64,000 bases of DNA from a phage, in the sequence record PZ154895.1. One strand, 5' to 3'. A program made the position numbers and the translations under genes. Below are positions 5,366 to 36,452 of this stretch, in pieces. Position 1 is the stretch's first letter. Each line of letters starts with the position of its first letter. Below the pieces are notes generated by a model. That model was not told where the DNA came from and made no database searches. It worked only from the letters and a program-made list of their open reading frames with translations.

Positions 5366-5818
5366 ATGGCATATTCTGGAAAATGGGTTCCTAAAAATAT
5401 ATCAAAATATAGAGGTGACCCTAAAAAAATTACGTATAGATCAAATTGGGAAAAATTCTTTTTTGAATGGTTAGATAAAAATCCAGAAATTATTGCATGG
5501 GGTAGTGAAACAGCAGTAATTCCTTATTTTTGTAATGCAGAAGGGAAAAAACGTAGATACTTCATGGATATTTGGATGAAAGATTCTTCTGGACAAGAAT
5601 TTTTTATTGAAATAAAACCTAAAAAAGAAACACAACCACCAGTTAAACCAGCACATCTAACAACTGCAGCGAAGAAAAGATTTATGAATGAAATTTATAC
5701 ATATTCCGTTAATACTGACAAATGGAAAGCAGCACAAGCTTTAGCTGAAAAGCGTGGAATAAAATTTAGAATTCTAACAGAAGATGGATTACGAGCTCTT
5801 GGCTTTAAGGGGGCATAA
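5366..5818 (+). CDS. 4: head completion protein gp4
   Basis: 150 aa, synteny 53/4/2/3/1; late promoter TATAAATA upstream. Confidence 0.85.
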
Positions 5819-28483: not shown

Positions 28484-28506
28484 GGTACTATACAACTATC
28501 AACTAC
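28484..28506 (+). repeat. 23-nt core GGTACTATACAACTATCAACTAC (partial cassette copy)
   Basis: exact match to cores at 12951-12973 and 29926-29948. Confidence 0.7.
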
Positions 28507-28528
28507 TGATACAGATTTGGAGAATAAA

Positions 28529-29497
28529 ATGAAAACTGTAACTATCAATAAGGGTATCTACTTTGGTAAAGAAATCTCTGGAACTTTTGAGCTCTTAGGC
28601 GAATGGTTCCCAGATAATGCTCCGGTAGATGCACAAGGAGATGGTAAAGTTTTTGTTGAAATTGACGGTAAACGTCGCGGTGTTTGGGTTTACAAATCAG
28701 ATATTTCATATGATGGTGTAAAAGTTGAAGAAGTTAAAGAATCGTATGAAGATATGAAAACCCGCATTAATAAAAGATTTAATGTTATGGGAATGATGAC
28801 GAACGGTATTATTAATGGAAATATTCGTTCATTAATTATCTCTGGCGCAGCAGGTATTGGTAAAACGTATTCTTTAGATAAAGCTTTAAATAAAGCAAAT
28901 GATATTGGATACATTGAATATAAAAGCATTAATGGTAAAATCTCTGGTATTGGTCTTTATGAGCAGCTTTGGAATAATCGTGAAGAGAATTCTGTCCTTT
29001 TGATTGATGATGTGGATGTTTTCTCTGATATGGACATTCTTAATCTTCTAAAAGCTGCTCTGGACACTGGAGAGACCCGTAAAGTCTGCTGGAGCACTGC
29101 GTCTTCTTACTTAGAAGAAAAAGGCATTGACCGTGAGTTTGAATTTAAAGGAACGATTGTTTTTATCACAAACGTTGACATTGACCGCGAATTAGACCGT
29201 GGTACTAAACTTGCTCCACATTTACAAGCATTAGTGTCCCGCTCAGTTTATTTGGATTTGGGTGTTCACACTAATGAAGAAATTATGGTCAGGGTTGAAG
29301 ATGTTATTCTTTCAACTGACATGATGCAAAAGCGTGGTCTTTCTGATGAAGAAACTTATAAAGCATTATCATGGATGAAAGTTAATGTTAATCGTTTACG
29401 CAATGTTTCACTGCGTACTGCTCTTTATCTTGCTGACTTTATTATGACCGACAAAAACGGTTGGGAAGAAATTGCTGAGGTTACTCTTCTGAAATAA
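28529..29497 (+). CDS. AAA+ family ATPase with N-terminal extra domain
   Basis: 322 aa from ATG 28529; Walker A GAAGIGKT, Walker B LLIDDVD. Confidence 0.65.
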   Translation: MKTVTINKGIYFGKEISGTFELLGEWFPDNAPVDAQGDGKVFVEIDGKRRGVWVYKSDISYDGVKVEEVKESYEDMKTRINKRFNVMGMMTNGIINGNIRSLIISGAAGIGKTYSLDKALNKANDIGYIEYKSINGKISGIGLYEQLWNNREENSVLLIDDVDVFSDMDILNLLKAALDTGETRKVCWSTASSYLEEKGIDREFEFKGTIVFITNVDIDRELDRGTKLAPHLQALVSRSVYLDLGVHTNEEIMVRVEDVILSTDMMQKRGLSDEETYKALSWMKVNVNRLRNVSLRTALYLADFIMTDKNGWEEIAEVTLLK

Positions 29498-29598
29498 TTC
29501 ATAAGAGGACTTCTATGACAAAAAGGCAGTTCAGAAATAGATTATATGGACTGCCATTAAAAAGATGACTAGAATTAAACTGGTGAATGGAGGTAGTG

Positions 29599-29901
29599 AT
29601 GTTATACTCAAAGGCTCGTGAAATTTACGAAACTAAAATTAAAGAAGCAGTATTTCAGTTCGCAACGACAATGCGATGGACAAATGACTGGGAGTATTCA
29701 AAAAATCATAAGAAGCCCATGGTGACAAGAAAGGCTCATATGTTAGTGTTAATAGACCGTGAGCAGATTAAAGCCCGAGAAGCCCTCCAGAATCATAAAA
29801 AGGCTGCCTTTGAATGGTTTATGGATAACACTGCTCCTGAGACTAAGAAAGCAGTGAGCGCATGGTTCAGTGGAAAAAATTGTGAAAGAAGTTTCTTTTA
29901 G
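29599..29901 (+). CDS. hypothetical protein
   Basis: 100 aa from ATG 29599 with SD GGAGG. Confidence 0.45.
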   Translation: MLYSKAREIYETKIKEAVFQFATTMRWTNDWEYSKNHKKPMVTRKAHMLVLIDREQIKAREALQNHKKAAFEWFMDNTAPETKKAVSAWFSGKNCERSFF

Positions 29902-29925
29902 TGGTTTACAAGACTGTTCCTCTGT

Positions 29926-29948
29926 GGTACTATACAACTATCAACTAC
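29926..29948 (+). repeat. 23-nt core GGTACTATACAACTATCAACTAC (partial cassette copy)
   Basis: exact match to cores at 12951-12973 and 28484-28506. Confidence 0.7.
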
Positions 29949-29961
29949 GGAGGAACAGAAA

Positions 29962-30489
29962 ATGAACGCTAAAGATATTTTCAACCTGGTAAATTACAAC
30001 GATGGTAAATTTAAATCTGAAGCACAAAGCAAGTTCTTTAACGACATCTCAATCGGAGGTGAAATCACTGTTGATGGAGGACAAATTTACAAATCCCGTT
30101 GGAACTGGATCGTTATTATTGATGAGATTGGTATTGTCGAAATTTACAAGAATACGAATAAAAATCGTACATTACACTGGTCTCGTGATACTAACGAACA
30201 GTACAAAAAAGATAAAGCATCTAAAATTTCTCGTGTAACTCAAGAAGATATTGAGTTTATCAAGAAAGATATTTTAATGTATGATAACTTAATTGCTGAA
30301 GAGCAAGCTGTTATTGATAAATTTGACGAGATTAAAGCTTCTCGTGAAATTCCTGATTTTATGAAAGAATCAGTAAATGAACGATACACTCTCATTTCAG
30401 AGCGTATTGAAACTTACAAAAAGCAAAGAGCTGAACGCCAAAATACTCTTCGGAAGTTTGAAGAACGGTTAAAGACGGTACTCGCATAA
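29962..30489 (+). CDS. hypothetical protein with C-terminal coiled coil
   Basis: 175 aa; promoter cassette upstream. Confidence 0.5.
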   Translation: MNAKDIFNLVNYNDGKFKSEAQSKFFNDISIGGEITVDGGQIYKSRWNWIVIIDEIGIVEIYKNTNKNRTLHWSRDTNEQYKKDKASKISRVTQEDIEFIKKDILMYDNLIAEEQAVIDKFDEIKASREIPDFMKESVNERYTLISERIETYKKQRAERQNTLRKFEERLKTVLA

Positions 30490-30544
30490 CCGCTTTATAC
30501 CAAGGATGGTATAATGGTTCTAAGCCCTTTTAATTGAGATTATT

Positions 30545-30952
30545 ATGAAACAGTTGATAATTAAAAGATTGAATTTATTGATATGTTGTTTATGTGTAGT
30601 AGTTGCATACGGTTATTACGCAATTAATGATTATATGCATTATAAAGATTATGATGTTACTGTAGTTAATACCATTACAGGAACACAAGGAAAGGGGTCT
30701 AGTTTATCGTTTATTGCCGTATATGAACTCAAAGACGGTTATAGATTTAGTGAATATATTTCCCCAGAGATGTATTTTTCAATAGAAAAGGGTGATAATA
30801 TTACTGTAAGTTTACGTCCTTTCGACGTAAAACAGACACTGTTTGATAATATTGTTTGGTTCTTTGGGATGGTATTAGTTCAATCCGTGTGTGGCGCTTA
30901 TGTAGTCTGTTCAATCATATTCTGTGTATTTAGTAAAATTGAAATTGAGTGA
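30545..30952 (+). CDS. membrane protein
   Basis: 135 aa, N- and C-terminal hydrophobic helices. Confidence 0.5.
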   Translation: MKQLIIKRLNLLICCLCVVVAYGYYAINDYMHYKDYDVTVVNTITGTQGKGSSLSFIAVYELKDGYRFSEYISPEMYFSIEKGDNITVSLRPFDVKQTLFDNIVWFFGMVLVQSVCGAYVVCSIIFCVFSKIEIE

Positions 30953-30959
30953 GGAAAAT

Positions 30960-31850
30960 ATGTCAGTAGTAATTAATAATGTCAATGCAGTAATTAAATC
31001 ATTAGTTAATAAAAAAATGATGAATGAATGGACTGTACTTCGCCGTGGAGAGCCAGATAAATTTTTTCATAGATTTAACCCAACTTTGGATTTGAATGTT
31101 ATCGACAAAGATGTTCATGCAGAAATTTTAGATAAGTTTAAAGTTGATATTGGATTTGGATTAGAAAAACATTTGCAGCGAACAACCGGGTCTGGAATGA
31201 GTTTATCTAATCGCATTATGAAAGCCCTTAATAAAATTGGAGCGTTGTCTCGTATTAATGCGAGCGAAATCCTTCGTAATTATAATAAAGGATATGACCT
31301 TTATGGTCGACTAATGCCAAAATTATCATTCGATCAAATGATTGCGGATTTGTGGGAAAATCAACGACGATTATTAGCATTGGGCGCTCGATTAGCTAAA
31401 GGTCTAGATAAACAAATGATTTTTAAGACCAATAATACAGAAGACCTTAAATGCTTTAAATTTAGTATTCGCGGAGATGATTATTACATCAGAGCTCGCT
31501 CTACAGATTATGTCAATATGGGTCATCATCTCTGTTTAGCTTTTGAAGTTTTAAAAGAAGCTGGAACACTAGAATATTCATCTGGTGCTAAATGCCCTAT
31601 TGGTTCAAGTTGTATTTTAATTTATCGCCCGGATGAATCCAGTTCAACTAAATTGCCTACAAAACCTGTACCAGTTCGTAGTAACGAAAAACATTCTGAA
31701 CAAATTGATTATTTTAATAAGCAGATTGAAGAGCTGAATATTTCTATTCAACAATATGACGATGAAATTTTCAGACTATCTGGACTGAGTAGTAAAGCTA
31801 AATCTGAGCGTGAAAAGTTAATTAAAATTGTTGATTTACTTAAATCTTAA
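30960..31850 (+). CDS. paralog-array protein 1 (C-terminal coiled coil)
   Basis: 297 aa from ATG 30960 (SD GAGGAAAA); about 45 aa heptad C-terminus. Confidence 0.55.
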   Translation: MSVVINNVNAVIKSLVNKKMMNEWTVLRRGEPDKFFHRFNPTLDLNVIDKDVHAEILDKFKVDIGFGLEKHLQRTTGSGMSLSNRIMKALNKIGALSRINASEILRNYNKGYDLYGRLMPKLSFDQMIADLWENQRRLLALGARLAKGLDKQMIFKTNNTEDLKCFKFSIRGDDYYIRARSTDYVNMGHHLCLAFEVLKEAGTLEYSSGAKCPIGSSCILIYRPDESSSTKLPTKPVPVRSNEKHSEQIDYFNKQIEELNISIQQYDDEIFRLSGLSSKAKSEREKLIKIVDLLKS

Positions 31851-31858
31851 GGAATACC

Positions 31859-32887
31859 ATGAAAACTCGTTCTCAAATTGAAGATATGGTTCGTAATGCC
31901 AGCTATACTCGTGATGTTATGACATTTTTGTGTGAAAATAATTTAGACCCTGATAAAGTTAATCGTGTTATTCATCACTTTAAGTATACGAATAGCAGTG
32001 AATGGGTGCGTAATTTTAATAAAGCGGGATATATTACACAAATGACTGCTCGTGAGCAGCTCACCGATTTCTGTAAAACTATTGATTATAAAAATCCTCT
32101 ATTTGTTCAAGGCGTTGGCCAAAGTAAGGTCGATTTATCATCTGGATTTTTCAATCCAAATCATTATCGTATTGAATGGAGATTTATTGCTCTGTTCCGT
32201 AGGCAATTAAAGCAAATTTTATCAACTGCGAGTCGATTAAAAGGTTCTGATATTAATTTAAAGAATCTGAAATTTGATGGTTATACTCTTCAGATGGAAG
32301 TAAGACCATTAAAAGAAAATAACAGAACTGCACGAATTAGCTTTAAACCTAATACAAAAAATTCTCTTTCAATTTGCGAATGCCTTAAATCACAGTTGAC
32401 AGAAGCATTTAAGTATATGGATGTTGTTGCTGCTGTTCAGTCTAAGATTTCACAACATTTCGAACGATTTAAATTAGACACAACAACATATGAACTTGAT
32501 ATGATCGTTTCATTTAAATACGATTTTTTGAGAAAGGACGAAGTCACGCAAGAGAAAAAGCAGGAAGTGCAAGATAACTTAAATTTAAATTTATCCAATT
32601 ACTTATCAAACGATCCTAAATTTTGGATGTATAGTTCAGGTAATAAGGATGAATGGAAATTCAATAAAGTGAATTTTCTTCCTGTTGAAAATCCGAGTCT
32701 TAAACCTGTTGAAAAATGGCATGCAGATGCGATTGAGAAGTCTATCAAGGCAGTAGATGATGAACTCGTTAAAGCAACTAATGAAGTGCTAGAAGCTGAA
32801 AAGATGCTAGAAAAAGCTCAAGAAAAAGTCAAAAATCTCACGAAGCAACGTTCTAAACTGAACAATGCACTAAATGCACTAAACTAG
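31859..32887 (+). CDS. paralog-array protein 2 (C-terminal coiled coil)
   Basis: 342 aa; N-terminus MKTRSQIEDM; C-terminal heptad repeats. Confidence 0.55.
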   Translation: MKTRSQIEDMVRNASYTRDVMTFLCENNLDPDKVNRVIHHFKYTNSSEWVRNFNKAGYITQMTAREQLTDFCKTIDYKNPLFVQGVGQSKVDLSSGFFNPNHYRIEWRFIALFRRQLKQILSTASRLKGSDINLKNLKFDGYTLQMEVRPLKENNRTARISFKPNTKNSLSICECLKSQLTEAFKYMDVVAAVQSKISQHFERFKLDTTTYELDMIVSFKYDFLRKDEVTQEKKQEVQDNLNLNLSNYLSNDPKFWMYSSGNKDEWKFNKVNFLPVENPSLKPVEKWHADAIEKSIKAVDDELVKATNEVLEAEKMLEKAQEKVKNLTKQRSKLNNALNALN

Positions 32888-32916
32888 TTTACTTTGCCAC
32901 AAGGATGTGGTATAAT
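32887..32916 (+). promoter_or_regulatory. early promoter GTTTACT-N17-TATAAT upstream of paralog 3
   Basis: -35 32887-32893, -10 32911-32916. Confidence 0.55.
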
Positions 32917-32944
32917 GTTCTTACTTTCTACTGAGGAGATTAAT

Positions 32945-33946
32945 ATGACTCGCAACGAATATATCAAATCGTTCAACAGCGTTATTGATGATAAAGTTAA
33001 ACCTATGTCTAGTCAGAATAGTTTGATTTCTATTATCAATCAATGGCTCAATAATACTGATGCAAGTATTGTTTCTTCTGGCAAATTTATTCATGAAGTT
33101 CGTGAAATTTCTAGTCGTACAGATAAAGAAGACATTAAGAAAACCTTTAAAGGGTCTCGTCTTCTTTCATACTTAGTCAACAGAGATATTCTTAGTAAAT
33201 TTGGGAAAGAAATTAAACGAACTAAAGATGTAGTAGGATATAATTGGTTCGGTGATGTTAATTCTTATCATCTTAATAATAAAGAAGACCCTGAGAATAT
33301 TTTTACTCGTCGTTGGATTAGTAATTTCAGACTTTTCAAAGGACAAATTCTAAAATCAGCTTCTAAATTATGCTATGGCGATTATCGTCAAATTCATCCT
33401 TTGGCTTCTGATATGATTATCGTAAAAGAATATGAGCTTGATAAAAATAAAGTAGCTATTTTTGTGAATTATGGATTTTTTACACCAAACGCTAACCAAA
33501 AGAATATTAATAAATTTTTCTCAATTGCTAGCACTATAACTTATCAATTAGAGGCGGCTTTGGGCTGTATGGAAACTGTAAAAAGTATTCATACATATCC
33601 TTTCAAAAATATGTGTGGTTGGGAAGGATATAAAATTATAATTAGCCTTCGTGAAGTAAAGCGTGCGTACTCACCGACTGATAAAGAAATTTATCAACAA
33701 AAATGCGAAGAAATTGTGAATACTCCTAAAGAAGAAACTACCCTTGAGGAACTAATGGAATGTCTTGACGATTCACCTGAACCGGTAGAAATTCGTCCAG
33801 AAGTTATTGCATTAGAAAAAGCTTATAAAGAAGCTCTAGAAATTTCTAATAAAGCACAGAAAGAATATGAGAAGACTAAAAGGATTTGGGAAGAATCTGT
33901 TAATCGTCTGGATCGTCTGGAACAAGCTTTACAATTAATTAAGTAA
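32945..33946 (+). CDS. paralog-array protein 3 (C-terminal coiled coil)
   Basis: 333 aa from ATG 32945 (SD GGAG); N-terminus MTRNEYIKSF; own early promoter at 32888-32916. Confidence 0.55.
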   Translation: MTRNEYIKSFNSVIDDKVKPMSSQNSLISIINQWLNNTDASIVSSGKFIHEVREISSRTDKEDIKKTFKGSRLLSYLVNRDILSKFGKEIKRTKDVVGYNWFGDVNSYHLNNKEDPENIFTRRWISNFRLFKGQILKSASKLCYGDYRQIHPLASDMIIVKEYELDKNKVAIFVNYGFFTPNANQKNINKFFSIASTITYQLEAALGCMETVKSIHTYPFKNMCGWEGYKIIISLREVKRAYSPTDKEIYQQKCEEIVNTPKEETTLEELMECLDDSPEPVEIRPEVIALEKAYKEALEISNKAQKEYEKTKRIWEESVNRLDRLEQALQLIK

Positions 33947-33998
33947 TTTAAAGCCAAGGATGGCTCGGAGTATAAATCATTAACCAAGTGAGAAGAAC

Positions 33999-34928
33999 AT
34001 GAAAACTCGTAAACATTATATTGATTATTTTGACAGTCTTATTACTAAACACCGTAATTATCAAATCGGGCACAGAGCAGTAATCAATAATATTCTTCGT
34101 GATTTCCTTCAATATGTTGGCCAGGAAAATCATATCTGTAAAGATACTCAAAACGCTTATTCTCATTCGTTAGGCAATTTGCTTGAATGGTTTAAACGTT
34201 CTCGTATGTTATCTTCTACTGTAGCTCGCGATAACATTAAAAACTTTATGAAGCCGAGCTTTATTAAATCTGAGACATCTATAACTGATTTGGTTGAATT
34301 TACTATTGTTAACGATGTTAAAAAGACTCATTTGGCTGATTGGTTATCTACCATTCCTGAAACTAAATTTGCTGATAAATTTGCTTGTCAATTCAATGAC
34401 CAAGTGAATATGCTTTTTAAGCATGCTCGCAAACTGTTTACCGCGGGTGATGACCGTACAAATACAGTTCATGTTAAGGATTGGGTTATTGCTGATGAAG
34501 TAACACACAAGCCAGGTGGTTCATCAGTATTAATTAATATCCAGGTTCCTTATTATTACTCACGTAATCTCGGCACCATGAATGCTAGAGAAATTAATAA
34601 GCATAACAAAACTATTCGTTCGTTGTCTTATAAACTCCGCATGATGCTAAAAATTATGGACGTAGTGGAAATGTATGACGAAACCGAAGATAATGGTTCA
34701 ATGTTATACAGTTCACGCATTCTAATTAAACTGAAGAACCCTAATACATATAAGCCAGATGTAAAAGAACCTAAAGTAGAAAAGGTTGATAACCTGAGTG
34801 AAGAACGTGAATATCTCAAATCTCGATTGGTTGAAGTTGAAGCCCAGATTGCCGAACACACCAAATTGTTAAAAGCTCTTAATGCAAAAGCAAATGGTTT
34901 ACGTAATGCTATTGAGGTATTGAAATGA
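33999..34928 (+). CDS. paralog-array protein 4 (C-terminal coiled coil)
   Basis: 309 aa; N-terminus MKTRKHYIDYF; C-terminal heptad repeats. Confidence 0.55.
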   Translation: MKTRKHYIDYFDSLITKHRNYQIGHRAVINNILRDFLQYVGQENHICKDTQNAYSHSLGNLLEWFKRSRMLSSTVARDNIKNFMKPSFIKSETSITDLVEFTIVNDVKKTHLADWLSTIPETKFADKFACQFNDQVNMLFKHARKLFTAGDDRTNTVHVKDWVIADEVTHKPGGSSVLINIQVPYYYSRNLGTMNAREINKHNKTIRSLSYKLRMMLKIMDVVEMYDETEDNGSMLYSSRILIKLKNPNTYKPDVKEPKVEKVDNLSEEREYLKSRLVEVEAQIAEHTKLLKALNAKANGLRNAIEVLK

Positions 34929-35242
34929 AAAAGCGTCTATTAGAAGACATTGCAGCTTCAAGTAATTCTAGTCTAATTAAAATTATTATGGCTGGTGAAG
35001 AAGACGATCTGGAAATGCGTGGAAAGATTCATGGTTGTGACGATTTAGATTTTAAACCTCCGGCATGGGATGCTATTATTGTTATGGTTGAACGCCGCGA
35101 AAGGGCTTCTAAGAATGTTCCGAACTGCCCAAAATGTGGTACTGAACAGGTACAATTAGTTCATTGGCAGACTAGTATTCTTCGTTATAAATGTCGTCAT
35201 TGCAAACACCGATTTGACCGAGAAGAAAATGAAAAAGCGTAA
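34925..35242 (+). CDS. zinc-ribbon protein
   Basis: 105 aa; CPKCG...CRHCKH four-Cys motif. Confidence 0.5.
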
Positions 35243-35471
35243 AGAATATATGGAGATTGCTGAAAAGGCAGTCCGTGAATTAGCAATAGCGTATTATAAT
35301 GAACACGGTAAATTTCCTGATAGATACAGCGTGCTTAAATCTGCTTTAACTCGTTCATATAAAAATATGCTATCAGAAGTAAGTGATATTATATACAAAC
35401 ATAAAGAACAAACGGGCCAAAGTCTTGATTACGACGAGACTTTTAAACAAGTACTAGGAATTAAGGAATAA
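35214..35471 (+). CDS. hypothetical protein (start uncertain)
   Basis: 85 aa ORF overlapping upstream gene end. Confidence 0.45.
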
Positions 35472-35472
35472 T

Positions 35473-35736
35473 ATGTTTAAAGTATATGGTTATGATAGCA
35501 ACATCCACAAATGTGTGTATTGCGATAATGCAAAACGTCTCTTGACTGTGAAGAAACAGCCGTTTGAATTTATCAACATTATGCCGGAAAAAGGTGTTTT
35601 TGATGATGAGAAAATCGCTGAGCTTCTGACGAAACTAGGTCGTGATACTCAAATTGGACTGACGATGCCACAAGTATTTGCTCCTGATGGAAGTCATATT
35701 GGTGGATTTGACCAATTGCGGGAATACTTTAAATGA
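35473..35736 (+). CDS. nrdC: thioredoxin/glutaredoxin NrdC
   Basis: 87 aa beginning MFKVYGYDSNIHKCVYCDNAKRLL; CVYC redox motif; matches T4 NrdC as recalled. Confidence 0.92.
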   Translation: MFKVYGYDSNIHKCVYCDNAKRLLTVKKQPFEFINIMPEKGVFDDEKIAELLTKLGRDTQIGLTMPQVFAPDGSHIGGFDQLREYFK

Positions 35737-35948
35737 TGCTCGAAGGAACTGATTATATCCATGACTACCGCGGAAGCGCGGTATATGTAGGTGATGAGGT
35801 TGCAGTTTATTATGGGTATGGAACTTTGATGACAGCAAAGGTTATTCAAATTAAAAATAATCGTGCTAAACTCGAAGTTTATTATTCTAATGGTGAAAAG
35901 TCTATTTCTAAATGGAAATATGGCGATTGCATGGTCAAACTGGGGTAA
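35733..35948 (+). CDS. hypothetical protein
   Basis: 71 aa, ATGA coupling. Confidence 0.45.
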   Translation: MMLEGTDYIHDYRGSAVYVGDEVAVYYGYGTLMTAKVIQIKNNRAKLEVYYSNGEKSISKWKYGDCMVKLG

Positions 35949-35950
35949 AT

Positions 35951-36121
35951 ATGATTTACGATATTAGTGTATCAAGAACTCCGTCAATGGTTACTATTCC
36001 AGCCGAAGAATTAGATCGTCTTCAGAAAATTGAAGAGCTTCTTTGGGAAATTGAATCTGATTTGCCATCAGGACTAGAATCCTGGATTGATTATGAAGAA
36101 CTTAATAAATTGCGAAATTAA
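35951..36121 (+). CDS. hypothetical small protein
   Basis: 56 aa from ATG 35951. Confidence 0.35.
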   Translation: MIYDISVSRTPSMVTIPAEELDRLQKIEELLWEIESDLPSGLESWIDYEELNKLRN

Positions 36122-36131
36122 TTGGTGACAA

Positions 36132-36452
36132 ATGAATATTGAAAATAAATTAGATGTTGATGCAGTTCTGAGTGAAATCATTGAAGACCATGATGCATTT
36201 TCAGAAAACTATGATTTCGATTTTTCCGATTATCTTAAACCTGTCGAAATAGAAGACTGGGTGCAAGACGGTAAATGTCAATATCGTCAGTGTGTTTATT
36301 TTAGTCCAAAACATAACGTTCATGTGTCTGTAAATGAATCTCGCTCAGGTTCTTACCATTCTGACTGGTATTATGCAGTTCCGACTGTTGAACTAGTCGA
36401 GCCCCGTGAACGTGTAGTAACTCAGACAATACGAGAATGGATTACGCTATAA
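36132..36452 (+). CDS. hypothetical acidic protein
   Basis: 106 aa. Confidence 0.45.
   Translation: MNIENKLDVDAVLSEIIEDHDAFSENYDFDFSDYLKPVEIEDWVQDGKCQYRQCVYFSPKHNVHVSVNESRSGSYHSDWYYAVPTVELVEPRERVVTQTIREWITL

What the first reader, a model, noticed from the sequence alone, without database searches (positions are those of the whole stretch)
30545..34928. Tandem array of four divergent paralogs, each ending in a C-terminal coiled coil
Four consecutive ORFs (30960-31850, 31859-32887, 32945-33946, 33999-34928; 297-342 aa) share the same architecture: a divergent globular N-terminal region and a roughly 45-residue heptad coiled coil at the extreme C-terminus. Three of them have related N-termini (MKTRSQIEDM, MTRNEYIKSF, MKTRKHYIDYF). 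Paralogs 3 and 4, and the membrane protein just upstream of paralog 1, each carry a related CAAGGATG-tataat promoter/leader. This pattern indicates serial duplication with rapid divergence, as seen in phage host-takeover or anti-defence families. No enzymatic motif was recognisable by eye.
Basis: seen in the sequence. Interest (0 to 1): 0.75.

Follow-up and report, generated by a model that had tools for sequence, protein, structure and literature searches.

The report
T4 nrdC.3–nrdC.6 anti-defence paralog array
The four genes are nrdC.6, nrdC.5, nrdC.4 and nrdC.3 of a T4-like phage; they are very diverged copies of one ancestral gene, each with a globular head, a floppy linker and a C-terminal coiled-coil-type helix, and one of them (nrdC.5) is already known to disarm the bacterial Dsr1 defence, which makes the other three good candidates for inhibitors not yet characterised.

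Summary
The window is a Tequatrovirus (about 97% identical to SA20RB, ime09 and HY01). The ORFs are nrdC.6, nrdC.5, nrdC.4 and nrdC.3.

- **Homology.** BLASTP links only nrdC.4 and nrdC.3 (E 8e-9). Profile comparison links nrdC.5 (E 1e-10, 97%) and nrdC.6 (E 1e-5, 81%) to the nrdC.4/3 profile. AlphaFold2 models of nrdC.4 and nrdC.6 have the same order of elements and find each other's family in BFVD.
- **C-terminus.** All four end in one unbroken heptad register of 48-53 residues, finishing in a hydrophobic residue at position d plus one more residue (L/I-K in three, L-N in nrdC.5).
- **CAAGGATG motif.** It is real. It forms the apex of a small hairpin inside three promoters, one of them the mapped T4 middle promoter PnrdC.7.
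- **Function.** T4 nrdC.5 is a published counter-defence gene against Dsr1. Its neighbours nrdC.1 (anti-Septu) and gp49.2 (anti-OLD) are also inhibitors. All four genes are dispensable in T4.
- **Evolution.** Copy number runs from 1 (Marfavirus) through 3 (Dhakavirus and relatives) to 4 (Tequatrovirus). Natural chimeras, split genes and allele replacement occur. Gene-wide dN/dS is below 1.

Best reading: a modular family of direct inhibitors of host immune sensors. It is a new extension of a known kind and moderately interesting.

The parts
30488..30519 (+). Promoter and hairpin upstream of nrdC.7. It has a MotA-box-like GCTTTA (30492-30497), 12 bp of spacer and TATAAT (30510-30515). An 8-bp stem with an AGGA loop contains CAAGGATG (30501-30508).
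   Evidence: Sequence. RNA fold -10.5 kcal/mol, z -2.7. A T4 middle promoter PnrdC.7 is listed in PMC2988021. SA20RB annotates a middle promoter and a terminator at this site. The sequence is identical in T4, ime09, Manna and JS10.
30545..30952 (+). nrdC.7, a 135-aa predicted membrane protein and first gene of the nrdC.7-nrdC.6-nrdC.5 unit (gaps of 7 and 8 nt). It is context only, not a paralog.
   Evidence: It matches phrog_2547 only. It is absent from JS10, where the same promoter sits directly upstream of nrdC.6.
30960..31850 (+). nrdC.6, paralog 1 (296 aa). N-domain residues 1-227, linker 228-242, C-terminal heptad helices 243-295 (31686-31844).
   Evidence: phrog_2257 and PF26899. AF2 model pLDDT 77. 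hhalign to the nrdC.4/3 profile gives E 1.2e-5, probability 81%. Foldseek cross-hits. Heptad test 2/5000.
31859..32887 (+). nrdC.5, paralog 2 (342 aa, Pfam DUF7235). Its T4 orthologue (96% identical) is the published anti-Dsr1 gene. The C-terminal heptad helix covers about residues 285-342 (32711-32884).
   Evidence: PF23882 E 5.8e-126. 96% identity to T4 nrdC.5. PMC9391042. hhalign to the nrdC.4/3 profile gives E 1.3e-10, probability 96.9%, over 250 columns. Heptad test 0/5000.
32887..32916 (+). T4-early-type promoter upstream of nrdC.4: GTTTAC (32887-32892), 18-nt spacer, TGgTATAAT (-10 at 32911-32916). The spacer holds a 7-bp hairpin with an AGGA loop (32895-32912) containing CAAGGATG (32900-32907).
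   Evidence: SA20RB annotates a T4 early promoter here. Conserved in T4 and ime09. JS10 has a copy whose stem differs but still pairs.
32945..33946 (+). nrdC.4, paralog 3 (333 aa). N-domain residues 1-258, disordered linker 259-284, single C-terminal helix 285-332 (33797-33943).
   Evidence: phrog_1435 and PF26897. AF2 model pLDDT 83. BLASTP to nrdC.3 E 8e-9. Heptad test 44/5000.
33947..33976 (+). Promoter-like element upstream of nrdC.3. A 5-bp hairpin with an AGGA loop (33952-33965) contains CAAGGATG (33955-33962), and TATAAA follows (33971-33976).
   Evidence: It is not in the list of mapped T4 middle promoters. Its function is inferred.
33999..34928 (+). nrdC.3, paralog 4 (309 aa), in the same PHROG as nrdC.4. 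The C-terminal heptad helix covers about residues 262-309 (34782-34925). The allele here is only 61% identical to T4 nrdC.3.
   Evidence: phrog_1435 E 1e-116. BLASTP. Heptad test 6/5000. Allele divergence. The gene is absent from the JS10- and VR25-type genomes (Dhakavirus and relatives).

Best explanation
The region is the nrdC.6-nrdC.5-nrdC.4-nrdC.3 array of a T4-like phage (Tequatrovirus). The four genes belong to one very diverged protein superfamily that is confined to T4-like phages.

Each protein has three parts:
- an N-terminal alpha/beta domain of about 230-260 residues, made of a variable helical sub-domain followed by a conserved H-H-H-E-E-H-E-E core;
- a disordered linker;
- a C-terminal amphipathic helix of about 50 residues with an unbroken heptad repeat.

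The genes are transcribed before replication from a MotA-dependent middle promoter (PnrdC.7) and from an early-type promoter in front of nrdC.4. They are dispensable on laboratory hosts.

The most likely function is counter-defence. nrdC.5 neutralises Dsr1, a SIR2 NADase whose TPR sensor recognises the phage major capsid protein. I infer that nrdC.5 accumulates early and binds Dsr1 directly, before the late capsid protein appears. I also infer that the C-terminal coiled coil makes the inhibitor multivalent. By the same logic, nrdC.6, nrdC.4 and nrdC.3 would be sister inhibitors whose diverged N-domains target other host immune proteins or other Dsr1/Avs7-type sensor variants.

What is shown: identity of the genes, homology, architecture, heptad periodicity, promoters, copy-number variation, and the published nrdC.5 genetics. 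What is inferred: direct binding, oligomerisation, and any counter-defence role for nrdC.3, nrdC.4 and nrdC.6.
For: **Identity.**

**Homology.**
- BLASTP nrdC.4/nrdC.3, E 8e-9.
- hhalign nrdC.5 to the nrdC.4/3 profile, E 1.3e-10 (96.9%); nrdC.6 to the same profile, E 1.2e-5 (81%). Reversed-profile controls gave 0.15-0.48.
- The AF2 models of nrdC.4 and nrdC.6 have the same order of secondary-structure elements.
- The nrdC.4 model hits JS10 NrdC.6 in BFVD (E 1.7e-5, probability 1.0). The two models share six further targets, all from T4-like phages.
- Marfa gp080 is the only member at the syntenic site in that phage. It has an nrdC.4-like N-domain and an nrdC.5-like C-terminus (hmmsearch E 6e-11 to the nrdC.5 profile), so it bridges the two.

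**Coiled coil.** One register per protein, 0-44 of 5000 shuffles reaching the observed score. Between genera the C-helix is more conserved than the N-domain: 61-70% against 38-41% for nrdC.6, and 63% against 42-50% for nrdC.4 in two of three comparisons (the third, L011, aligned only 30 of 49 helix residues and gave 31% against 42%).

**Counter-defence.**
- T4 nrdC.5 restores plating on Dsr1 cells (PMC9391042).
- The Dsr1 sensor recognises the major capsid protein (PMC12803255).
- Neighbours nrdC.1 (anti-Septu) and gp49.2 (anti-OLD) are inhibitors.
- T4 nrdC.3-.6 are non-essential by transposon mapping.

**Signatures expected at an arms-race locus.**
- Copy number of 1, 3 or 4 at one syntenic site.
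- Hybrid genes, split genes and an internal duplication.
- nrdC.3 is 61% identical to T4 while the upstream genes nrdC.10-nrdC.5 and downstream nrdC.1/nrdC are 96-100% (nrdC.7 90%; the adjacent nrdC.4 and nrdC.2 are 89%).
- Variable sites cluster at residues 20-60 of the N-domain.

**No rival annotation.** No enzymatic or known domain was found.
Against: - Only nrdC.5 has a phenotype. Nothing is published for nrdC.3, nrdC.4 or nrdC.6.
- No binding or oligomerisation data exist, and no multimer prediction could be run.
- Gene-wide dN/dS is 0.04-0.29, so there is no gene-wide positive selection.
- nrdC.6 links to nrdC.5 only through the nrdC.4/3 profile and through structure. The direct comparison is not significant (P 0.08).
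- nrdC.5 itself was not modelled.
- The core residues of the nrdC.4 heptad are partly small or polar (A, S, T), so its helix may pack differently.
Confidence: 0.6

Rival explanations
1. The family has a host-takeover or physiological role unrelated to immunity, such as modulating a host process early in infection. The rescue of a Dsr1-sensitive phage by nrdC.5 would then be indirect, for example by changing NAD metabolism or the timing or availability of the capsid trigger.
For: The eLife experiment is genetic (plasmid expression rescues plating) and shows no direct interaction. Purifying selection is seen gene-wide. The central core is conserved, for example NKGYDLYGR and NQRRLLALGARLA in nrdC.6, which could be a site for a conserved host ligand.
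Against: All four genes are non-essential on the laboratory host. They vary in copy number and are pseudogenised or fused in natural phages. They sit among other proven inhibitors. No enzyme or metabolic domain was found.
Confidence: 0.2
2. The four proteins work as one hetero-oligomeric complex, assembled through their homologous C-terminal helices, and not as four independent inhibitors.
For: The helices share the same register to the last residue and a common end (A-L/I-x-x-L-K). The genes are adjacent and expressed together. Natural chimeras that swap the helix of one paralog for that of another remain intact ORFs (Manna nrdC.6::nrdC.4; P0056 nrdC.5::nrdC.3).
Against: nrdC.5 alone, expressed from a plasmid, suffices against Dsr1 in a phage carrying a deletion. 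Phages with 1, 2 or 3 members exist. Each helix is conserved within its own orthologue group but differs between paralogs.
Confidence: 0.12
3. The N-domain is a decoy that mimics a phage tail-terminator or tail-completion protein (gpU-like alpha/beta sandwich) and soaks up sensors that recognise structural proteins.
Confidence: 0.05
4. The four ORFs are unrelated proteins that share a C-terminal amphipathic helix by convergence, so there is no paralogy beyond nrdC.4/nrdC.3.
For: Pairwise BLASTP is non-significant for five of the six pairs. Pfam and PHROGs keep three separate families. The direct nrdC.6-nrdC.5 profile comparison gives P 0.08.
Against: Profile-profile E-values are 1e-10 and 1e-5, against reversed-profile controls of 0.15-0.48. 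The motifs are collinear. The predicted topology is the same. Foldseek hits are reciprocal. A bridging sequence exists.
Confidence: 0.03

Closest known systems
T4 NrdC.5 (Pfam DUF7235, PF23882), anti-Dsr1 counter-defence gene (Srikant, Guegler and Laub, eLife 2022)
   Same: The window's second ORF is its orthologue: 96% identity to the T4 protein and a full-length PF23882 match. The other three ORFs are remote homologues with the same three-part architecture.
   Different: nrdC.3, nrdC.4 and nrdC.6 do not match PF23882 and have no phenotype. The mechanism of nrdC.5 itself is unpublished. Its paralogy with the neighbouring genes is not stated in any paper found.
DSAD1, the SPbeta-phage inhibitor of the sirtuin defence protein DSR2
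   Same: It is a phage protein that blocks a SIR2-domain NADase activated by a phage structural protein. The papers retrieved describe binding to DSR2 that suppresses activation by the tail tube protein (abstracts). This is the functional model I infer for nrdC.5 and Dsr1.
   Different: No sequence or fold relationship was detected or tested. DSR2 and Dsr1 have different sensors and triggers (tail tube against capsid). DSAD1 is not known to occur as a tandem paralog array.
Other inhibitors in the same T4 region: NrdC.1 (anti-Septu) and Gp49.2 (anti-OLD)
   Same: They lie in the same early or middle transcribed, non-essential stretch a few genes downstream (35229-35471 and 36132-36452 in the window). 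This supports calling the region an anti-defence island.
   Different: They are small proteins (80 and 106 aa) with no similarity to the array and no coiled-coil tail.
Phage tail-terminator / tail-completion fold (lambda gpU-like)

Membership tests
DUF7235 / NrdC.5 family (PF23882) | Full-length match to the Pfam model above its gathering score | tested here: met
   nrdC.5 (31859-32887): E 5.8e-126, 420 bits against a cut-off of 30, residues 1-342. nrdC.6, nrdC.4 and nrdC.3 gave no match to this model, so they are not members at Pfam level.
DUF7235 / NrdC.5 family (PF23882) | Counter-defence activity against Dsr1 | not testable with these tools
   Shown only for the T4 protein by plasmid rescue (PMC9391042). 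The window's protein is 96% identical to it.
NrdC.4/NrdC.3 family (phrog_1435; PF26897) | Significant full-length match of both proteins to one family model | tested here: met
   phrog_1435: nrdC.4 E 3.9e-164 and nrdC.3 E 1.2e-116. All homologues carry the precomputed label PF26897. Direct BLASTP gives E 8e-9.
NrdC.6 family (phrog_2257; PF26899) | Significant full-length match | tested here: met
   phrog_2257 E 2.8e-152. All homologues carry the precomputed label PF26899.
Proposed superfamily uniting nrdC.3, nrdC.4, nrdC.5 and nrdC.6 | Statistically supported collinear profile-profile similarity | tested here: met
   nrdC.5 to nrdC.4/3: E 1.3e-10 (96.9%). nrdC.6 to nrdC.4/3: E 1.2e-5 (81%). 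Reversed-profile controls: 0.15-0.48. The direct nrdC.6 to nrdC.5 comparison is not significant at 0.08.
Proposed superfamily uniting nrdC.3, nrdC.4, nrdC.5 and nrdC.6 | Same predicted fold and order of elements | tested here: met
   Tested for nrdC.4 and nrdC.6 only. Foldseek against BFVD gave cross-hits with probability 1.0.
Coiled-coil proteins | Unbroken heptad (a/d hydrophobic) periodicity over at least 4 heptads in a predicted helix | tested here: met
   Seven heptads in one register in each protein; 2, 0, 44 and 6 of 5000 shuffles reached the observed score. Helices are predicted by AF2.
Coiled-coil proteins | Actual oligomerisation through the helix | not testable with these tools
   No multimer prediction or experiment was available.
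Phage anti-defence (counter-defence) accessory genes | Dispensable for growth on a permissive host | tested here: met
   From the literature only: in the HIDEN-SEQ supplement, T4 nrdC.3-.6 are classed non-essential, with 96-100% of insertion sites tolerated.
Phage anti-defence (counter-defence) accessory genes | Variable presence and rapid turnover among related phages | tested here: met
   There are 1, 2, 3 or 4 members at the syntenic site. Hybrids, split genes and allele replacement occur.
Phage anti-defence (counter-defence) accessory genes | Demonstrated inhibition of a defence system | tested here: inconclusive
   Published for nrdC.5 only. No data exist for nrdC.3, nrdC.4 or nrdC.6.
Thioredoxin / glutaredoxin (the label many GenBank records give these ORFs) | Thioredoxin-fold domain match and a CxxC active site | tested here: not met
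   None of the four matches a thioredoxin or glutaredoxin model in Pfam or NCBIfam. No CxxC is present in the translations. The label is carried over from the locus name nrdC.x.

The most novel reading that the evidence does not exclude
nrdC.6, nrdC.5, nrdC.4 and nrdC.3 are a modular inhibitor family scaffolded by a coiled coil. A conserved oligomerising helix would present rapidly diversifying N-domains, each tuned to a different host immune sensor. The targets could be different members of the Dsr1/Avs7 TPR-sensor family that recognise the capsid protein. Unequal recombination within the array (as in Manna and P0056) would then generate new head-tail combinations.
Probability: 0.3. Interest if true: 0.7.

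Novelty: new member of a known kind. Interest (0 to 1): 0.5.

Why it matters
nrdC.5 is one of the few known phage answers to a SIR2-type NAD-depleting defence, and its mechanism is unknown. Three neighbouring proteins of unknown function turn out to be its remote paralogs, with the same head-linker-coiled-coil build.

This gives three things:
- A structural frame for working out how Dsr1 is blocked: which part binds and which part oligomerises.
- Three concrete candidate inhibitors to screen against defence-system libraries and wild E. coli.
- A natural example of an anti-defence gene family expanding (1, 3 then 4 copies) and recombining at a fixed site in T4-like genomes.

It also corrects the widespread 'thioredoxin' annotation of these genes.

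Tried and rejected
- **Pairwise BLASTP among the four.** Only nrdC.4/nrdC.3 was significant. The first, shallow profiles gave weak links. Adding three distant members and more loci was needed.
- **nrdC.8 as a fifth paralog.** It also has a C-terminal heptad-like helix, but it was rejected: hhalign P 0.12-0.42 and heptad test 157/5000.
- **More paralogs elsewhere in the 64-kb window.** None found on either strand.
- **Known domains.** Pfam, NCBIfam, PADLOC and PDB sequence searches returned nothing meaningful. The weak hits (PHL, DUF3905, XerD N-terminus, caspase-3, designed helical repeats) are all below their cut-offs.
- **Exhaustive HMMER search of 1.84 billion representatives with the nrdC.4/3 profile.** It returned only 10 hits, all from the same family, so no cellular relatives exist.
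- **Gene-wide positive selection.** Not found.
- **The 8-mer count as a statistic.** Not significant on its own.
- **Marfa gp084 as a second family member.** Rejected.
- **Literature searches.** No follow-up work on nrdC.5 or on nrdC.3, nrdC.4 or nrdC.6 was found.

Full report
**What the region is**

The window is a T4-like phage of the genus Tequatrovirus. The stretch 28500-36000 is 96-97.5% identical to phages SA20RB, SH-1, ime09 and HY01, and 488 phage records cover at least 80% of it. By synteny with the annotated ime09 and T4T records, the four ORFs are nrdC.6 (30960-31850, 296 aa), nrdC.5 (31859-32887, 342 aa), nrdC.4 (32945-33946, 333 aa) and nrdC.3 (33999-34928, 309 aa). The membrane protein upstream is nrdC.7. 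The thioredoxin gene nrdC lies at 35473-35736.

**Are the four proteins related?**

By pairwise BLASTP, only nrdC.4 and nrdC.3 are related (24% identity over 314 residues, E 8e-9). The other five pairs are not significant. PHROGs and Pfam keep three families: phrog_1435/PF26897 for nrdC.4 and nrdC.3, phrog_2351/DUF7235 for nrdC.5, and phrog_2257/PF26899 for nrdC.6.

Profile-profile comparison changes this picture.
- After I enriched the nrdC.4/3 profile with distant members, nrdC.5 aligns to it with probability 96.9% and E 1.3e-10 over 250 collinear columns, C-terminal helix included.
- nrdC.6 aligns with probability 81% and E 1.2e-5 over 107 columns.
- The same profiles reversed, used as a control, give P 0.15-0.48.
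- The aligned motifs are visible by eye. One example is RWisnFrlfkgqILKSASKLcyGD (nrdC.4), EWRFIALFRRQLKQILSTASRLKGSD (nrdC.5) and DLWENQRRLLALGARLAKGLD (nrdC.6). A second example is the later helix qLEaALgcMetV, sQLTEAFKYMDVV and hhLCLAFEVLKE.
- The direct nrdC.6 to nrdC.5 comparison is not significant (0.08). nrdC.6 therefore joins through the nrdC.4/3 hub and through structure.

**Structure**

- The AlphaFold2 model of nrdC.4 has mean pLDDT 83. It shows a confident domain at 1-258, a linker at 259-284 with pLDDT below 50, and one helix at 285-332.
- The nrdC.6 model has pLDDT 77. It shows the same order of elements (H-H-H, E-E, H, E-E), a linker at 228-243 and helices at 243-272 and 278-295.
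- In BFVD, the nrdC.4 model finds JS10 NrdC.6 (E 1.7e-5, probability 1.0). The two models share six further targets.
- All significant hits are uncharacterised proteins of about 280-375 residues from T4-like phages of Enterobacter, Pectobacterium, Acinetobacter, Erwinia, Klebsiella, Serratia, Citrobacter and Yersinia.
- An exhaustive HMMER scan of 1.84 billion representative proteins with the nrdC.4/3 profile found only 10 hits. The family is therefore confined to this phage lineage.

**The C-terminal helix**

Each protein's last 48-53 residues fit one uninterrupted heptad register. Composition-preserving shuffles reached the observed score in 2, 0, 44 and 6 of 5000 trials for nrdC.6.5.4 and .3. 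All four end in the same register, with a hydrophobic residue (L or I) at position d and the last aligned residue at e (…L/I-K in nrdC.6.4 and .3, …L-N in nrdC.5). The a/d positions of nrdC.4 are partly A, S, T, Y and W, so its packing may be atypical.

Between genera the helix is generally better conserved than the N-domain: 61-70% against 38-41% for nrdC.6, and 63% against 42-50% for nrdC.4 in two of the three comparisons. In the third (L011) only 30 of 49 helix residues aligned and the helix scored lower (31% against 42%). Within Tequatrovirus, variable sites pile up at residues 20-60 of the N-domain and in the linker of nrdC.5. Oligomerisation itself could not be tested.

**The CAAGGATG elements**

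The 8-mer occurs three times on the + strand (30501, 32900, 33955). As a bare count this is not significant. Each copy, however, is the apex (CA-AGGA-TG) of a hairpin whose lower stem differs between copies while pairing is kept. Each lies just after the upstream stop codon and just before TATAAT or TATAAA.
- The first copy has a MotA-box-like GCTTTA 12 bp upstream of the -10. It corresponds to the T4 middle promoter PnrdC.7 listed in PMC2988021.
- The second copy fits the T4 early promoter consensus (GTTTAC … TGgTATAAT) and is annotated as such in SA20RB.
- The elements are conserved in T4, ime09 and Manna. They also occur in JS10, a different genus, where one has a different stem that still pairs.

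What the hairpin does is unexplained. It could be promoter-spacer structure, a 3'-end stabiliser for read-through transcripts, or a weak terminator.

**Function**

- Srikant, Guegler and Laub (eLife 2022) found that a T4 clone with a deletion could no longer infect ECOR17 because of the sirtuin defence protein Dsr1. Expressing the early gene nrdC.5 from a plasmid restored infection of cells carrying dsr1. The window's nrdC.5 is 96% identical to the T4 protein.
- A 2026 preprint reports that the TPR sensor of Dsr1, shared with Avs7, is triggered by phage major capsid protein.
- Two genes just downstream are also inhibitors: nrdC.1 against Septu and gp49.2 against OLD.
- Transposon mapping classes T4 nrdC.3 to nrdC.6 as non-essential.
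- I found no paper on nrdC.3, nrdC.4 or nrdC.6, and none on the mechanism of nrdC.5.

**Evolution of the array**

In 19 loci the order is fixed, but the number of members varies.

| Phage group | Members at the site |
|---|---|
| Tequatrovirus | nrdC.6-.5-.4-.3 |
| JS10- and VR25-type genomes (Dhakavirus and relatives) | nrdC.6-.5-.4 |
| Klebsiella phage Marfa | one member, at the syntenic site between nrdC.11 and nrdC.2 |

The single Marfa protein has an nrdC.4-like head and an nrdC.5-like tail.

Natural rearrangements are common.
- Salmonella phage Manna has an in-frame nrdC.6::nrdC.4 hybrid, joined at QQYDDEI|VNTPKE, and has lost nrdC.5.
- One 167-kb contig encodes an nrdC.5::nrdC.3 hybrid.
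- nrdC.4 is split in phage G8 and matches in two separate pieces in T2.
- Sf25 nrdC.6 carries an internal 82-residue tandem duplication.

The window's nrdC.3 is only 61% identical to T4's, while nrdC.10 to nrdC.5 upstream and nrdC.1/nrdC downstream are 96-100% identical (nrdC.7 90%; the immediately adjacent nrdC.4 and nrdC.2 are both 89%). This is an allele replacement. Against JS10 the array members are 29-51% identical, while nrdC.10, nrdC.8, nrdC.1 and nrdC are 68-85% identical. Gene-wide dN/dS within Tequatrovirus is nevertheless 0.04-0.29.

**Interpretation**

The array is an old, repeatedly remodelled family of early accessory proteins.

My best explanation (confidence about 0.6) is that they are direct inhibitors of host immune proteins. 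The variable N-domain would be the recognition module and the conserved coiled coil an oligomerisation module. nrdC.5 against Dsr1 would be the founding case. The steps from genetics to direct binding, and from nrdC.5 to its paralogs, are inference.

Rivals are:
- an indirect or non-immune role (0.2);
- one hetero-oligomeric complex (0.12);
- mimicry of a tail protein (0.05);
- convergence without homology (0.03).

**Novelty**

The genes and the nrdC.5 phenotype are known. The new points, as far as the searched literature and family databases show, are the unification of three database families into one superfamily with a common head-linker-coiled-coil build, its distribution (1 to 4 copies at one site), and the natural chimeras. 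This is a new extension of a known kind of system and is of moderate interest.

Noticed in passing
L004:4715-5752 (Salmonella phage Manna); P0056 (299 aa, from a 167-kb contig): There are natural in-frame hybrids between paralogs. Manna_094 joins nrdC.6 residues 1-267 to nrdC.4 residues 251-333 at the micro-homology QQYDDEI / QQKCEEI and deletes nrdC.5. P0056 joins nrdC.5 residues 147-273 to nrdC.3 residues 137-309.
   Followed up: partly
window 33999-34928 compared with L002:6557-7483 (T4T): nrdC.3 in this phage is only 61% identical to T4 nrdC.3 (dN 0.31, dS 1.13). The genes upstream from nrdC.10 to nrdC.5 and downstream nrdC.1/nrdC are 96-100% identical (nrdC.7 90%), while the adjacent nrdC.4 and nrdC.2 are 89%. 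Two deeply diverged alleles therefore circulate within Tequatrovirus.
   Followed up: partly
L009:8950-9982 (phage G8); PV958097.1 (T2); P0122 (Shigella phage Sf25): nrdC.4 is split into two ORFs in G8 and matches in two pieces in a T2 record. Sf25 nrdC.6 (378 aa) carries an in-frame tandem duplication of residues 177-259. Assembly error was not excluded.
   Followed up: partly
window 30488-30519, 32895-32912, 33952-33965; L003:3351-3387 and 5439-5475: A conserved hairpin has an invariant CA-AGGA-TG apex and a lower stem that covaries. It sits in the spacer of a middle promoter, an early-type promoter and a third promoter-like site. It is conserved in another genus (JS10). Its role is unexplained.
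   Followed up: partly
window 32915-32944: Several GenBank records (ime09, SA20RB) start nrdC.4 ten codons earlier, at an ATG that overlaps the -10 hexamer. The conserved MTRNEYI start and the GAGGAG Shine-Dalgarno sequence point to 32945 as the true start.
   Followed up: yes
window 28517-35471 (nrdC.10 to nrdC.1) and many public records: Many GenBank and UniRef entries call nrdC.1 to nrdC.11 proteins 'thioredoxin'. RefSeq calls nrdC.7 'Mur ligase domain-containing'. None of these has a thioredoxin match or a CxxC motif. The names are carried over from the locus label or from sub-threshold hits.
   Followed up: yes
window 28517-29497 (nrdC.10): This 322-326 aa protein has a Walker A motif (GAAGIGKT). 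It has weak, sub-threshold matches to AAA and STAND-type NTPase models (AAA_14, nSTAND3) and to clamp-loader PHROGs. It is highly conserved (79% identity to JS10, dN/dS 0.00-0.07).
   Followed up: no
window 29962-30489 (nrdC.8): This 175-aa protein also ends in a charged, weakly heptad-like helix (157 of 5000 shuffles reached the observed score). It shows no detectable homology to the array (hhalign P 0.12-0.42).
   Followed up: yes
window 35229-35471 (nrdC.1) and 36132-36452 (gp49.2 orthologue): These are orthologues of two published inhibitors, nrdC.1 against Septu and gp49.2 against OLD. They lie just downstream of the array, so the 30.5-36.5 kb stretch looks like an anti-defence island.
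   Followed up: partly
L019:5001-5948 (Klebsiella phage Marfa gp080): This is the only family member at the syntenic site in Marfavirus. Its N-domain is nrdC.4-like and its C-terminal 70 residues are nrdC.5-like (hmmsearch E 6e-11). It may resemble the ancestral single-copy state, or it may be a recombinant.
   Followed up: partly
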